Virus record (IMG/VR): IMGVR_UViG_3300021255_002485
Span: 67,802-131,801 of that record
Strand: one strand, 5' to 3'
Source: a virus
Lineage: Duplodnaviria; Caudoviricetes
DNA: 64,000 nucleotides
Shown: positions 49,048 to 60,870 of the stretch, one piece after another
Layout of the letters: the number at the start of each line of letters is the position of its first letter
Numbering within the stretch: the stretch's first letter is position 1
The notes under the pieces: model-generated
What the model saw: the letters and a program-made list of their open reading frames with translations, nothing else
The model's database searches: none
Told to the model about the DNA's origin: nothing
Made by a program: the position numbers and the translations under genes

Positions 49048-49579
49048 CTACATAAAACCCATTTCCTTTACTGTCCATTCCTGCTGCACCGAGCAAGAAA
49101 AGAATAAAACCTACTCCTTCCACTCCTTAACCTCCTTATACGTCTCCCTTGCGACTACTGAGGTTATAAGTACGGCGATTATTGCGTATCCCATTACCGT
49201 ACCTCCAGCATTTCCGTTATACCGTTATCCTGATAAATCCAATGATTTTTTACGCAATATGCGATTGCTTCGATCACGGTATCAAATGATGCGATGATTT
49301 CGCTTTTTGTACAGACCTTATACATCGTCCTCATCCTCCTCTTCTCCCTTGAGAAAATGCTCATCAAGCGTCATGAAATCGGACTGATAGCGTTCGAGAT
49401 CTCTCTTACCGTACTGCTTACGGTCTTTTCCGTTATGTTTCCATGATCTCGTCTTACGCATTTACCTTATCTCCCTTCTGCGTTTTCAAGTAGATACTCA
49501 AGATCTGCGCGAATACCTCTACGTGTTTCTACTTTTGTGATATAAATGTAAATTGCCTTGATAAAAAGTTTCATTTACC

Positions 49580-49861
49580 TTATCTCCCTTCTACATATCC
49601 GCTATACTTCACGGATAGGATCTGATCATCTGTTACCTCTGTGGTTCCGTTGTCACTCATGAGCATAGAGCAGATATCTCCCTCCGCCCAATCCTCGATG
49701 CCGTAAAACTGAAACAGGTTTCCGTTGCTACATTCTACGATCACACAATCCTCGGTTTCGTTTACGTCCGTCACTATTGCGGTTTCAGGATACAGACTTG
49801 CGGTTGCCTTGATTTCTCCCGAAGTTATCAGTGACAATAATACTGTTATTAAGATTCCCAT
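49580..49861 (-). CDS. small exported phage protein (YPETAIV...DNGT...DD motif)
   Basis: Signal-like N-terminus, AGGAGG RBS. Confidence 0.7.
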   Translation of the reverse strand: MGILITVLLSLITSGEIKATASLYPETAIVTDVNETEDCVIVECSNGNLFQFYGIEDWAEGDICSMLMSDNGTTEVTDDQILSVKYSGYVEGR

Positions 49862-50119
49862 TTTCTTTTACCTCCTCTTGGATGAATTCATACATTTCTT
49901 GTTTTGTTGAAAATTTTCCCTCGTGCAATAGGGTAAAATCACCGGAGTGCATTGTTGTACTCCGCGTATGCCACATTGAGTGAGTGACATACTATTGTGG
50001 TGATGCGGTCACCACGGATGATGATCTCATACTGCGACTTTGCAGCGTTGTGGTACAGACCGACAGTTTCATTGGTGCGCTCATTGAGTGCGGAATAAAT
50101 ACGTGACATGATTAGCCTC

Positions 50120-50308
50120 CTACATCAGATAGGTACATACTACAGGCGTACCGAATTGAATAACACTCCTTAGCCCACTTGAAGTGTTAACACGCTCTAT
50201 CCGTGAGTCGTACTTGCTGGATAGTGCGCAGATTGCACTCTCAAAACCTTGCTCATACAAAGTGATGATGTCGTGAGGAAATCCCCACTGAGATGTAGAA
50301 ATAAACAT
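50120..50308 (-). CDS. small hypothetical protein
   Basis: Start MFISTSQ after AGGAGGG; the upstream extension in the ORF track lies in the RNA region. Confidence 0.55.
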   Translation of the reverse strand: MFISTSQWGFPHDIITLYEQGFESAICALSSKYDSRIERVNTSSGLRSVIQFGTPVVCTYLM

Positions 50309-50445
50309 AATTACCCTCCTGTTGTGATAGGTTGACGGTGACACCCACAATAATCCGAAGCAAGCAAAAGAGAACCGTAATCCTCTCCCACTCCATGTGT
50401 TCAGAAAAGTTGCGGACACCATAGGGATGACTACACCTATGGATA

Positions 50446-50487
50446 AAGCCGTGTGCGGAGTTGAACCGCTGTAACCGTTCACGGCTA
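50446..50487 (-). ncRNA. tRNA-like minihelix (acceptor stem plus T-arm)
   Basis: AGCCGTG/CACGGCT stem with GCGG-TTCAACT-CCGC. Confidence 0.6.
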
Positions 50488-51140
50488 TAAATTGTAGGAT
50501 TTACGACAGTTGGGACTTGCCACTCTCGACCTCACCACCCCATACGGGTTACAGAACTCACATCACCGTGACTCCTACGCTCAAGGGCTTACACCTTGAA
50601 TGGCTACTCAATGACCTACTACTTGCCACGGACTTATCCGACTACCATACAGCACCGACAATAAGCAAAACGTTCGGTATTTGATACTCTCGTCTGACAG
50701 TATCTCGTGGGTTTGTAGACCATTCTGACAACCGCCTGTGTCCATCGGCTTGTTGTATTTTTACCAAGTAAGATATTTTCGTGTACTATTCCGCTCTTAG
50801 AGCAACCACTTTCTTCTCTCCTATCCTCGGAACACACATATTACAGGTGATTCACTAAGCCCTTGTAATACGTGTTGCTGACCTCTACACTTGGTCGGGC
50901 GGCGACCCGCTTGTCTCCCTGCGATGTTATTTACTCTGTTCCTGTCAATCATGTGATGTACTCCAATCAGCAATCATGTGTTTTGTGGTTTGAACCGCCA
51001 CGACCCGTGAGCCTTAAACAAATCCGGTATTTCACAGTCGGTGTATCTGCTACTTTATCCGGCGACATGACGTATGTGATTTTTGTACGGTACATGACAT
51101 CTTGGCATTTCAATAACACCTTCGAATATCACGCCTTTAT
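50488..51140 (-). ncRNA. large structured ncRNA, ROOL-like (boundaries approximate)
   Basis: About 650 nt with no credible ORF, raised GC and many stems; 3' half resembles ROOL RNAs as I recall them (not aligned). Confidence 0.6.
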
Positions 51141-51145
51141 TGATA

Positions 51146-51265
51146 CCGTTTTGGATTACGGCGAACCGTAGGAAATAAAGCCATGAGAGAACCTCATGAC
51201 GTACAGATTTTGGATTATCTGAAACCTTAAAAAAGACGATAGTTTTAAGGGATTACTATCAACCC
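51146..51265 (-). repeat. three tandem H-type pseudoknot units GGUU-[S2]-AAUCC-AAA-[S2']
   Basis: S2 covaries: GATAGT/ACTATC, CAGAT/ATCTG, CCGT/ACGG. Confidence 0.65.
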
Positions 51266-51267
51266 AA

Positions 51268-51312
51268 ATCCGAAGGGCGGAGTTGCACCGCCCTTGACCA
51301 TCTCGGTCGGAT
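51268..51312 (-). ncRNA. tRNA-like minihelix (second)
   Basis: ATCCGA/TCGGAT stem with GGGCGG-TGCAACT-CCGCCC. Confidence 0.55.
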
Positions 51313-51317
51313 AAGAA

Positions 51318-51734
51318 TTACTTGTTTTTCCACTCATTCCAGAGCTTTTCACGCTCTGATGCAGTTACGGTATTATTTTTTGCGAATGCAGCTGCATCTT
51401 TGGTAGTCTTGAAAGTTATGACCTTTACCGTCTTGTCATACTGTCCACCAACAGACTCAAAACGACGCTTTAGGATCTCCCACACATCCTTCTTGACGTA
51501 TGCCGACAGAGTAACCTTTTTTCCGGTTGCACTCATGTTAACGGTGATATCCTTCGGAGTATACTCCTTCTCCTTCTTCGGTGATGACTTCTGATTACCG
51601 TACATGGATACCATACCATCCAGTATGCCCTTCAGCTTTTCTGCATCTGAGTCAGTAACCATATAGGTTAATCCACAGAATGTTACTTTGTTATCAGCCG
51701 ATACAGTAGATTTCGCGTTTTTGAAGTTAATCAT
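51318..51734 (-). CDS. basic hypothetical protein, first gene of the leftward early unit
   Basis: AGGAGG RBS, 138 aa. Confidence 0.75.
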   Translation of the reverse strand: MINFKNAKSTVSADNKVTFCGLTYMVTDSDAEKLKGILDGMVSMYGNQKSSPKKEKEYTPKDITVNMSATGKKVTLSAYVKKDVWEILKRRFESVGGQYDKTVKVITFKTTKDAAAFAKNNTVTASEREKLWNEWKNK

Positions 51735-52133
51735 ATTATACCTCCTATGCTTTATGGTTTAGCATTAACCAAAGATAAATTTTGTGTCGCTCGGTCTTGC
51801 TGAGCTTGAGAACACATTACCACCGACCTCGGACGGTGCTGAAAATGCCCATTTTCAACACCTTTGAGGAGAGCCATGATCGGCTTTTGTGCCGGTGGAG
51901 GGGCGTGGTTTTAGCGGATTTGTAGTTAATTTTTTGAAAATCGCCAGAAGCTGTTTCATCTCCACACCAACCCCTATTTTCCGCACCTTTTCTTAAAATC
52001 CGCTCCATCGCCCCAAATATCGCTCCAAACCCCCTAATTTCGCGCTTCTCCGCAGCTCTATCCTATATAAATTTAAAAAGAAAAAATCCGCTCTCCCTCT
52101 CTCCAGATCCCTATCCAGAGCGAGTTGGTGCGA

Positions 52134-52162
52134 TTGACACATTTGAAAGTGAATGATAGGAT
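52134..52162 (+). promoter_or_regulatory. sigma-A promoter
   Basis: TTGACA-17-TAGGAT with extended -10 TG. Confidence 0.6.
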
Positions 52163-52174
52163 AATTTCAGATAC

Positions 52175-52386
52175 GTTACTTCTGATTGTTCAACATTTTG
52201 ACACCTCGCAAACCCGCACTATTAGCGAATGTTGAACATTGAGAAGTGACATTAATATATATAATATATAAATATATTATATTATTATATATAGTTATAT
52301 AAGTATATTATTTACTCATATATTATTTAATATATATATTATTACTTTAGTAATAAATACTATGTTGGTTTTAAATGTTCAACATT
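52175..52386. repeat. three A(A/T)TGTT-S-AACATT palindromes flanking a ~110-bp AT-rich tract (candidate origin)
   Basis: 23-bp inverted pair at 52175-52197 and 52228-52250, third core at 52374-52386. Confidence 0.65.
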
Positions 52387-60526: not shown

Positions 60527-60554
60527 AGGGATAGAGGACGCTCTATCCCTTTTT
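60527..60554 (+). terminator. terminator-like hairpin abutting tRNA-Thr
   Basis: AGGGATAGAG-GACG-CTCTATCCCT-TTTT. Confidence 0.6.
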
Positions 60555-60627
60555 GCTGTCTTGGCTCAATTGGCAGAGCAGCTGATTTGTAATCAGCAGG
60601 TTAAAAGTTCGATTCTTTTAGACAGCA
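60555..60627 (+). tRNA. tRNA-Thr (UGU)
   Basis: GCTGTCT/AGACAGC acceptor, GCTGA-TTTGTAA-TCAGC anticodon arm, TTCGATT T-loop. Confidence 0.93.
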
Positions 60628-60691
60628 TTTGCTTTAGAAACGACCGTGATAAGTAAAGGATACACGGTAAATGGGCGAGGAGCCCAGTTAT

Positions 60692-60764
60692 GCTTTCTTA
60701 GCTCAATTGGTAGAGCACACGACTGTTAATCGTGAGGTTCCAAGATCGTACCTTGGAGAAAGCG
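60692..60764 (+). tRNA. tRNA-Asn (GUU)
   Basis: GCTTTCT/AGAAAGC acceptor, CACGA-CTGTTAA-TCGTG anticodon arm, discriminator G, atypical T-loop ATCGTAC. Confidence 0.88.
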
Positions 60765-60870
60765 CGTTGTAGATGATATAGAAGACGCATGGAAGTCATG
60801 AGCCTTGTGATGTGGTTACTCGCTTGCACTCTTCTATCTCTTTTATTTTTGACGATTAAAAGGAGAAAAT

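What the first reader, a model, noticed from the sequence alone, without database searches (positions are those of the whole stretch)
50488..51140. Large ornate non-coding RNA (ROOL-like) at the head of the early transcription unit
Seen: about 650 nt lacking a credible gene in an otherwise densely coding phage, with many stems (plus-strand 50581-50599, 50653-50679, 50683-50704, 50728-50753, 50831-50876, 50893-50907). Minus-strand segments such as TTGTCAGAATGGT, GGTAGTCGGA, GTAGTAGGTCATTGAGTAGC and GATGTGAGTTCT...GGTGGTGAGGT resemble the ROOL 3' half as I recall it; this is recall, not an alignment. Established: ROOL RNAs are about 600 nt, occur in Firmicutes and their phages, and have no known function. 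Placement among the very first early genes rather than beside tRNAs hints at a role in host takeover or counter-defence.
Basis: partly seen in the sequence, partly recalled or inferred. Interest (0 to 1): 0.75.

Follow-up and report, generated by a model that had tools for sequence, protein, structure and literature searches.

The report
Gene-free phage RNA stretch, not ROOL
A 1-kb gene-free, GC-rich stretch in the early operon of an uncultured 132-kb phage is real and is probably non-coding RNA with folded signals at both ends. It is not a ROOL RNA, and I could not show that its 650-base middle is a large folded RNA.

Summary
The gap is real and larger than reported: 50311-51317 has no credible gene on either strand. 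It lies on the minus-strand early unit of a 131.8-kb, terminally repeated, distantly SPbeta-like phage.

The ROOL reading fails its own first test. Infernal with all 4227 Rfam families finds nothing in the region, even at E<=10. The ROOL model finds nothing in the whole genome, yet scores 130 bits on a true ROOL in the control.

The cited stems exist, but the 653-nt body folds no better than shuffled sequence (z -0.30). This test is weak, because the true ROOL scores only z -1.09.

Positive RNA evidence sits at the ends:
- two paralogous T-loop hairpin minihelices
- three mini-pseudoknots with covarying stems
- a terminator-like hairpin
- a stable 3' hairpin domain in front of the next gene's ribosome-binding site

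Covariation in the body is therefore untested.

Best reading (about 0.35): a non-coding segment cut out at the minihelices, with its 5' end shielded by the pseudoknots. Rivals are an antitermination spacer and a decayed remnant. Another agent of this scan had already examined the pseudoknot leader on this same DNA.

The parts
51318..51734 (-). Upstream flanking gene of 138 aa. It has no Pfam or PHROG family. Its conserved C-terminal half has a generic alpha/beta (ferredoxin-like) fold.
   Evidence: Good RBS and ATG. Positive codon score. Six homologs at 49-75% identity, from Logan and ENA only. AF2 model with pLDDT about 90 for residues 60-138. Fold searches give only non-specific matches, Z<5.
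51268..51312 (-). T-loop minihelix 1. An outer stem AUCCGA/UCGGAU encloses the hairpin (A)GGGCGG-UGCAACU-CCGCCC(U).
   Evidence: Folds alone at -21.3 kcal/mol, z -3.22. Its 15-nt core is 14/15 identical to minihelix 2 (D3). Found by the architecture scan.
51145..51265 (-). Leader made of PK1 (51265-51238), PK2 (51226-51204), a terminator-like hairpin plus U-tract (51200-51170) and PK3 (51167-51145).
   Evidence: The three units share GGUU...UAAUCC..AAAA. Their second stems differ but stay complementary: GAUAGU/ACUAUC, CAGAU/AUCUG, GCCGU/ACGGU. The hairpin at 51200-51180 was flagged as terminator-like and has z -4.46. Sliding-window z is -2.3 to -3.1 here.
50487..51144 (-). It is ORF-free and 45.6% GC. 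Its structure is unproven.
   Evidence: No Rfam hit. z -0.30. No tRNA or tmRNA. No paralog in the genome. No significant k-mer enrichment.
50447..50486 (-). T-loop minihelix 2: AGCCGUG - 10 nt - GCGG-UUCAACU-CCGC - A - CACGGCU.
   Evidence: Folds alone at -14.6 kcal/mol, z -2.65. The outer stem has pair probability 0.91 in the full-length ensemble. It is a paralog of minihelix 1.
50345..50442 (-). 3' hairpin domain. A 7-bp hairpin CCAUAGG/CCUAUGG is followed by a long irregular hairpin with a 14-bp G.U-rich tip and a UACG loop.
   Evidence: -33.1 kcal/mol, z -2.78. Pair probabilities are 0.96-0.99 and positional entropy is the lowest of the region. The many G.U pairs form only on the minus strand.
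50120..50320 (-). Downstream flanking gene of 62 aa (ATG at 50308) with RBS AGGAGGG at 50320-50314.
   Evidence: Sequence. Gene-called in public data, with homologs at 93% and 74% identity.

Best explanation
The 1007-nt gap (50311-51317) is a non-coding part of the leftward early transcript of a distantly SPbeta-like phage of a Bacillota host. It is not a ROOL, GOLLD or OLE RNA, nor any other Rfam family.

Proposed mechanism:
1. The polycistronic RNA reads from the divergent promoter region near 52150-52250, through the 138-aa gene and into the gap. This is inferred from gene orientation and from the lack of a sigma-A-like promoter inside the gap.
2. Two paralogous tRNA-like T-loop minihelices (51312-51268 and 50486-50447) serve as cutting marks for host tRNA-processing enzymes (RNase P and RNase Z). 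They would release a non-coding RNA of about 0.8 kb and separate it from the downstream small-gene mRNA. This is inferred from shape only.
3. The three mini-pseudoknots just behind minihelix 1, and the 7-bp hairpin just behind minihelix 2, block 5'-to-3' decay (RNase J1 type) of the two new 5' ends. This is inferred from position.
4. What the 650-nt body then does is unknown. A decoy or sponge for a host factor is a guess.

Shown here: the stretch is non-coding, the end elements exist and are individually stable, and the pseudoknot stems covary among the three copies.

Not shown: transcription, cleavage, accumulation, or any defined fold of the body.
For: Non-coding.

Strand: G over C on the minus strand. 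The T-loop sequences read UUCAACU and UGCAACU only on minus. G.U-rich helices form only on minus.

End elements: the two minihelices share 14 of 15 core bases, while their outer stems differ entirely yet both pair. The three pseudoknot units have a constant first stem and loop and compensatory second stems. Each new 5' end would start within 2-5 nt of a stable structure.

No sigma-A-like promoter lies on the minus strand inside the gap, which fits co-transcription.

GC of 45.6% is at the 99.3rd percentile of the genome.

Precedents: abundant stable early non-coding RNA from Pleft in mycobacteriophages L5, D29 and StarStuff (PMC5712189). 5' stabilizers against RNase J1 in Bacillus (review PMC3997798).

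An earlier agent of this scan (e1-5950731) reports that the pseudoknot leader is kept in related phages. I could not check this.
Against: - The body has no support of its own. Its folding energy is at chance, it has no significant repeats or motifs, and no homologs were available for covariation.
- The loose minihelix architecture occurs 0-5 times in shuffled genomes, so the case rests on the pair's shared core.
- A terminator-like hairpin with a U-tract lies between PK2 and PK3. It could stop most transcripts before the body.
- Neither minihelix is recognised as tRNA-like by ARAGORN or by the tRNA covariance model.
- The whole 48.4-52.25 kb island is GC-rich, coding parts included, so GC is weak evidence.
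Confidence: 0.35

Rival explanations
1. Cis-acting transcription-control spacer. The three hairpins with the constant loop UAAUCC(N)AAAA act like nut/boxB sites that load an antiterminator, possibly the basic 138-aa protein encoded just upstream. The polymerase can then pass the hairpin terminator at 51200-51180 and the GC-rich minihelix hairpins and reach the delayed-early small genes. Under this reading the 650-nt body has no sequence-specific role.
For: Terminator-like hairpin with a U-tract inside the leader (z -4.46). Both minihelices are GC-rich hairpins followed by U-rich runs. Constant loops with variable stems are the pattern of protein-binding RNA hairpins. The 138-aa gene sits next to the sites, as lambda N sits next to nutL (established knowledge). 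No internal promoter was found.
Against: It does not explain why 650 nt of ORF-free, GC-rich sequence is kept in a densely packed phage. The two minihelices share a loop sequence that plain terminators do not need. The 138-aa protein has no recognisable RNA-binding family or fold.
Confidence: 0.28
2. Non-functional remnant. The gap is decayed DNA, for example a former tRNA island or former genes, acquired with the GC-rich island. The minihelices would be leftovers of internally deleted tRNA genes.
For: The island 48400-52250 is compositionally foreign, at 43.5% against 36% GC. Its 93-aa gene has its only IMG/VR relative in a 49%-GC phage. GGUUC-type T-arm words occur 5 times against 1.5 expected. 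The body folds no better than chance. No homolog of the stretch turned up in the phage collection (full search) or in the motif-limited scans of viral and metagenome contigs.
Against: No frame piece resembles any protein family. No tRNA-like hit appears even at E<=10 or with relaxed ARAGORN. Compensatory changes in the three pseudoknot units and the shared minihelix core point to selection on RNA at the edges. An earlier agent reports conservation of the leader in relatives (e1-5950731, not checked here).
Confidence: 0.2
3. Divergent member of the ROOL family.
For: Similar size. Phage setting in a gut or rumen Bacillota phage. An 11-nt word UUGAGUAGCCA and GUAGUCnnAUAAGUCC are shared with the pMP118 ROOL.
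Against: No hit to RF03087 in the region at E<=10 or anywhere in the genome. The same model scores 130.4 bits on a true ROOL. The shared words are in reversed order and at chance level, with 8 of 100 shuffles as good. The stretch is not beside tRNA genes.
Confidence: 0.01
4. The gap hides one or more small or unusual protein genes.
For: Phage early regions are full of tiny genes. Several frames of 45-68 aa lie on the minus strand.
Against: None has an ATG with a Shine-Dalgarno sequence like the neighbouring genes. The codon score is negative throughout. There are no family hits. The only RBS-like site with a start codon precedes a 7-codon frame.
Confidence: 0.06

Closest known systems
ROOL RNA (Rfam RF03087) and GOLLD RNA, the large ornate phage and prophage RNAs
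   Same: Length class of 0.55-0.8 kb. Encoded by phages of Bacillota from gut or rumen. No coding capacity and unknown function (PMC12286853).
   Different: No covariance-model match. Not beside a tRNA island. Sits inside an early operon between protein genes. No evidence yet of an elaborate conserved fold.
Abundant early non-coding RNA made from Pleft in Cluster A mycobacteriophages L5, D29 and StarStuff (PMC5712189)
   Same: About 500 nt or more of ORF-free sequence in the early lytic transcript of a temperate-type phage, with unknown function.
   Different: The mycobacteriophage RNA starts directly at the promoter, and its transcription and toxicity were shown by experiment. Here a gene precedes the RNA and nothing has been measured. 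There is no sequence relation.
tRNA-like processing marks: plant mitochondrial t-elements, the tRNA punctuation model, and minihelix substrates of RNase P
   Same: An acceptor-like stem stacked on a T-arm-like hairpin with a U-N-C-A-A loop, placed between functional RNA segments.
   Different: Not detected as tRNA by ARAGORN or by the tRNA covariance model. Cleavage is untested. The second copy has G in place of the universal U55.
Upstream pseudoknot domain next to the tRNA-like structure of tobamovirus 3' UTRs
   Same: Three consecutive small pseudoknots directly next to a tRNA-like element (papers listed; the layout itself is from my own knowledge).
   Different: The order is reversed here (minihelix first, then pseudoknots). 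This is the transcript of a DNA phage, not an RNA virus 3' end, and there is no sequence relation.

Membership tests
ROOL RNA (RF03087) | Significant match to the family covariance model. Rfam gathering score is 99.1 bits; the literature uses cmsearch E<1e-5 (PMC12286853). | tested here: not met
   No match at gathering score over the window. None at E<=10 over 50250-51400 with permissive filters. None at E<=10 in the whole 131.8-kb genome. Positive control: pMP118 ROOL scores 130.4 bits, E 1e-29.
ROOL RNA (RF03087) | Collinear conserved sequence blocks, such as GGUAcaAGUAGC and GUGAAAgUUGG. | tested here: not met
   Only scattered 8-11-nt words are shared with a true ROOL, in non-collinear order, at a level reached by 8 of 100 shuffles.
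ROOL RNA (RF03087) | Location in a phage or prophage, often beside a tRNA island. | tested here: inconclusive
   It is in a phage, but the nearest tRNA genes are more than 9 kb away at 60554-60765. 'Often' makes this feature non-decisive.
ROOL RNA (RF03087) | Multi-pseudoknotted fold supported by covariation, and homo-octameric cage formation. | not testable with these tools
   No homologous DNA could be fetched. Cage formation needs cryo-EM or mass photometry.
GOLLD, OLE, HEARO, raiA, group I/II introns, RNase P, tmRNA, 6S, T-box, self-cleaving ribozymes and all other Rfam 15 families | Match to the family covariance model. | tested here: not met
   The best hits in 50250-51400 have E 1.4-8 to unrelated eukaryotic or small RNA families, far below gathering scores. 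ARAGORN finds no tRNA or tmRNA.
tRNA-like processing element (minihelix or t-element type) | Acceptor-like stem coaxial with a T-arm-like hairpin that has a 7-nt loop with U at position 1 and A at position 5. | tested here: met
   Both copies have this shape. Loops are UUCAACU and UGCAACU. Stems are 6+7 bp and 7+4 bp.
tRNA-like processing element (minihelix or t-element type) | Cleavage by RNase P and/or RNase Z at the element. | not testable with these tools
   Needs end mapping or an in-vitro cleavage assay.

The most novel reading that the evidence does not exclude
The stretch encodes a new family of large phage non-coding RNA of about 0.8 kb. The RNA would be excised from an early operon at two tRNA-like minihelices and capped by a triple-pseudoknot 5' shield. 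It would be restricted so far to a small clade of uncultured gut or rumen Bacillota phages and have its own conserved fold and a role early in infection.
Probability: 0.3. Interest if true: 0.65.

Novelty: new variant of a known kind. Interest (0 to 1): 0.38.

Why it matters
Large phage non-coding RNAs such as ROOL and GOLLD are abundant, form striking cages and still have no known function. A further unrelated example in an early operon, with built-in processing and stabilising signals, would offer a new and more tractable case. Its ends suggest concrete experiments: cleavage by RNase P or RNase Z, and resistance to RNase J1.

The practical value of this check is mostly negative. The ROOL label should not be attached to this locus, and the 'ornate' body should stay a candidate until related contigs or RNA-seq are examined. 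The control run also shows that folding-energy z-scores cannot accept or reject ornate RNAs, since a true ROOL gives only z -1.09.

Tried and rejected
- **Rfam.** Gathering-score scan of the window and E<=10 scan of the region: only the five tRNAs elsewhere. ROOL model over the whole genome: nothing. I mistyped the GOLLD accession and ran a group II intron piece instead. GOLLD was still covered by the all-family scans.
- **DNA homologs.**
  - blastn against 50,697 phage records: none.
  - Exact and gapped motifs in IMG/VR: only chance hits, none alignable.
  - Own genome: no paralog.
- **Relatives through flanking proteins.**
  - 138-aa protein, alone and as an alignment, in viral, metagenome and genome contigs: none. 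In phage records: none.
  - 649-aa protein: none.
  - 831-aa protein: L002, L003, L004 and L244. L002 is not syntenic upstream. None of their records shows a homolog of the stretch; the only DNA matches are chance-level words of 15-33 nt at E 2.5 or more. The two records tested for the 138-aa gene (behind L002 and L244) lack it.
  - 93-aa protein: L254, a 49%-GC phage that shares only that gene.
- **Other checks.**
  - Pfam on eight frame pieces: nothing above cut-off.
  - The 99-aa ORF: no homolog.
  - Decayed-tRNA test with relaxed ARAGORN: only noise at 70% thresholds.
  - k-mer enrichment: nothing beyond the multiple-testing level.
  - Long-range 9-10-nt complements (51315-51306 with 50642-50633; 50865-50856 with 50591-50582; 51165-51157 with 50385-50377): about the number expected by chance (and my own estimate).
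  - Fold of the 138-aa protein: generic alpha/beta, Z<5, no functional inference.

Full report
**Setting.** The window is the last 64 kb of a 131,801-bp IMG/VR virus record with direct terminal repeats. Its large terminase is about 40% identical to those of SPbeta-group Bacillus phages and 44% identical to a human-faecal phage fragment. One protein has a distant relative in a Bacillota metagenome-assembled genome.

Genes from about 39.9 kb to 52.1 kb run on the minus strand, and genes from 52.36 kb onward run on the plus strand. The AT-rich stretch at 52150-52360 is therefore a divergence point. The finding lies in the leftward unit.

**The observation.** The gene-free stretch is real and longer than reported. 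The 138-aa gene (51318-51734, minus) has a strong RBS and ATG. The next convincing gene is a 62-aa ORF whose ATG at 50308 follows AGGAGGG. That ORF is gene-called in public data and has homologs.

The 1007 nt between them (50311-51317) contain only short frames.
- A codon-usage log-likelihood trained on 46 long genes of this phage is negative in all six frames across the gap and positive in the 138-aa gene.
- Eight frame pieces give no Pfam hit above cut-off.
- The longest ORF (99 aa, plus strand) has no homolog and no self hit among 5.8 billion predicted proteins.

- The 653-nt stretch has an MFE z-score of -0.30 on the minus strand, with 7 of 20 shuffles folding as well, and -1.00 on the plus strand.
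- The stretch 50440-51317 gives -0.89.
- Sliding 150-nt windows in the body range from -1.65 to +1.27.

I calibrated this test on a true ROOL, the abundant RNA of Ligilactobacillus salivarius pMP118. It gives only z -1.09, with 16 of 100 shuffles folding as well. The folding-energy test therefore neither supports nor excludes an ornate RNA.

**The ROOL reading.** cmscan with all 4227 Rfam 15 families finds only five tRNAs elsewhere in the window. With permissive filters and E<=10 on 50250-51400 it finds five chance-level matches to unrelated families. The ROOL model RF03087 (574 positions, gathering score 99.1 bits) finds nothing at E<=10 in the whole genome. The same model finds the pMP118 ROOL at 130.4 bits, E 1e-29.

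Direct comparison with that ROOL shows some shared short words. These are UUGAGUAGCCA (11 nt) and GUAGUCnnAUAAGUCC (14 of 16). However, the words occur in reversed order, and the best match is equalled in 8 of 100 shuffles. The locus is not a ROOL and belongs to no other curated RNA family. ARAGORN finds no tRNA or tmRNA at normal or moderately relaxed settings.

**What is positively there (minus strand, 5' to 3').**
1. *Minihelix 1, 51312-51268.* An outer stem encloses the hairpin GGGCGG-UGCAACU-CCGCCC. It folds at -21.3 kcal/mol, z -3.2.
2. *Three small units, 51265-51145.* They share GGUU, a variable 5-6-mer, UAAUCC, an A-run, and the complement of the variable 5-6-mer. The variable stems are GAUAGU/ACUAUC, CAGAU/AUCUG and GCCGU/ACGGU, so four of five positions change in a compensatory way among the three copies.
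3. *Terminator-like hairpin, 51200-51180.* It lies between the second and third unit and is followed by UUUAUUUCCU (z -4.5).
4. *The body, 51144-50487.*
5. *Minihelix 2, 50486-50447.* It reads AGCCGUG, 10 nt, GCGG-UUCAACU-CCGC, A, CACGGCU, with z -2.65. Its 15-nt core is 14/15 identical to that of minihelix 1, while the outer stems differ completely yet both pair.
6. *3' hairpin domain, 50442-50345.* A 7-bp hairpin is followed by a long G.U-rich hairpin with a UACG loop. Pair probabilities are 0.96-0.99 and z is -2.8. It ends 25 nt before the RBS of the 62-aa gene.

Several features assign these elements to the minus-strand RNA: the G.U pairs, the T-loop reading and the G-over-C skew. I found no sigma-A-like promoter on the minus strand inside the gap. 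The stretch is most simply co-transcribed with the 138-aa gene.

**What could not be done.** The deciding test is covariation among homologs, and it needs related DNA.
- The stretch has no match in 50,697 phage records and no paralog in its own genome.
- It has no relative among the loci pulled by three motif scans of IMG/VR and one of JGI metagenomes.
- The adjacent 138-aa protein has six homologs, but only in Logan and ENA assemblies. An alignment-based search found none in IMG/VR, JGI metagenomes or GTDB genomes.
- Phages reached through other proteins (L002, L244, L254) share single genes only and show no homolog of the stretch. L002 and L244's records were also tested for the 138-aa gene and lack it.

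An earlier agent of this scan (e1-5950731) states that the pseudoknot leader is kept in related phages and calls the downstream part a large undescribed RNA. I treat that as a lead, not as evidence.

**Interpretation.** The edges look selected at the RNA level. The middle has no evidence of its own beyond being ORF-free and GC-rich. Its 45.6% GC is at the 99.3rd percentile of a 36% genome, but it lies inside a 3.85-kb island that is GC-rich throughout.

My best reading (about 0.35) is a punctuated transcript.
- The two tRNA-like minihelices mark cuts by host tRNA-processing enzymes.
- The pseudoknots would start 2 nt behind the first cut, and the 7-bp hairpin 5 nt behind the second. Both would shield the new monophosphorylated 5' ends from 5'-to-3' decay.
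- 5' stabilizers of this kind are known from Bacillus (PMC3997798).
- The result would be a stable RNA of about 0.8 kb plus a separately stabilised downstream mRNA.
- Precedents for abundant early phage non-coding RNAs exist in mycobacteriophages L5 and D29 (PMC5712189).

The main rival (about 0.28) is an antitermination spacer. In it, the constant-loop hairpins are boxB-like protein sites, the hairpin at 51200-51180 and the GC-rich minihelix stems are terminators, and the body is filler.

A decayed remnant of a foreign island, perhaps a former tRNA cluster, is the third option (about 0.2). GGUUC words are mildly enriched, though not significantly after multiple testing.

Hidden small genes (about 0.06) and ROOL membership (about 0.01) are unlikely.

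**Verdict.** The ROOL interpretation fails. 'Large ornate RNA' remains an untested candidate. Interest is moderate: the end architecture is unusual and testable, but the claim that made the finding exciting is not supported by anything I could compute.

Noticed in passing
L002:1150-2250 (minus strand; IMGVR_UViG_3300044556_000077): About 1.1 kb that is ORF-poor and extremely G+T-rich, with GC 0.40-0.51 against a 0.30-0.38 background. It carries repeated units such as GGGAAATGGGTTT(T)CGT and ATTGGGGTA..GAATTGGG. It has no Rfam hit at E<=1 and is unrelated in sequence to the stretch studied here.
   Followed up: partly
window 51760-52140 (minus strand): A second ORF-free leader of about 380 nt lies between the divergent promoter region and the 138-aa gene. 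It carries iterated GGAGCG(R)AT(W)TTT motifs, and its folding z-scores are -2.5 to -3.3 in 150-nt windows.
   Followed up: no
window 52175-52325: Strongest folding signal of the scanned 4.8 kb (z -7.9 on plus, -5.7 on minus). It is a large palindrome in the AT-rich divergence region with three AATGTTCAACATT-type sites, which look like operators or an origin.
   Followed up: no
window 48400-52250: This is the most GC-rich part of the genome (43.5% against 36%). Its 93-aa gene (49580-49861) has its only IMG/VR relative, at 44% identity, in a 49%-GC phage (L254). This suggests the whole early module was acquired from a higher-GC phage.
   Followed up: partly
window 49594-49575 and 49481-49462 (minus strand): The identical 20-nt junction GAAGGGAGATAAGGTAAATG (RBS plus start) precedes two successive small genes, as in the cassette-like small-gene arrays noted elsewhere in this genome.
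   Followed up: no
L253:1501-2043 (NC_007930.1 178263-178805, minus): The true ROOL RNA used as a control has an MFE z-score of only -1.09. Folding-energy z-scores therefore cannot be used to accept or reject large ornate RNA candidates in this scan.
   Followed up: yes
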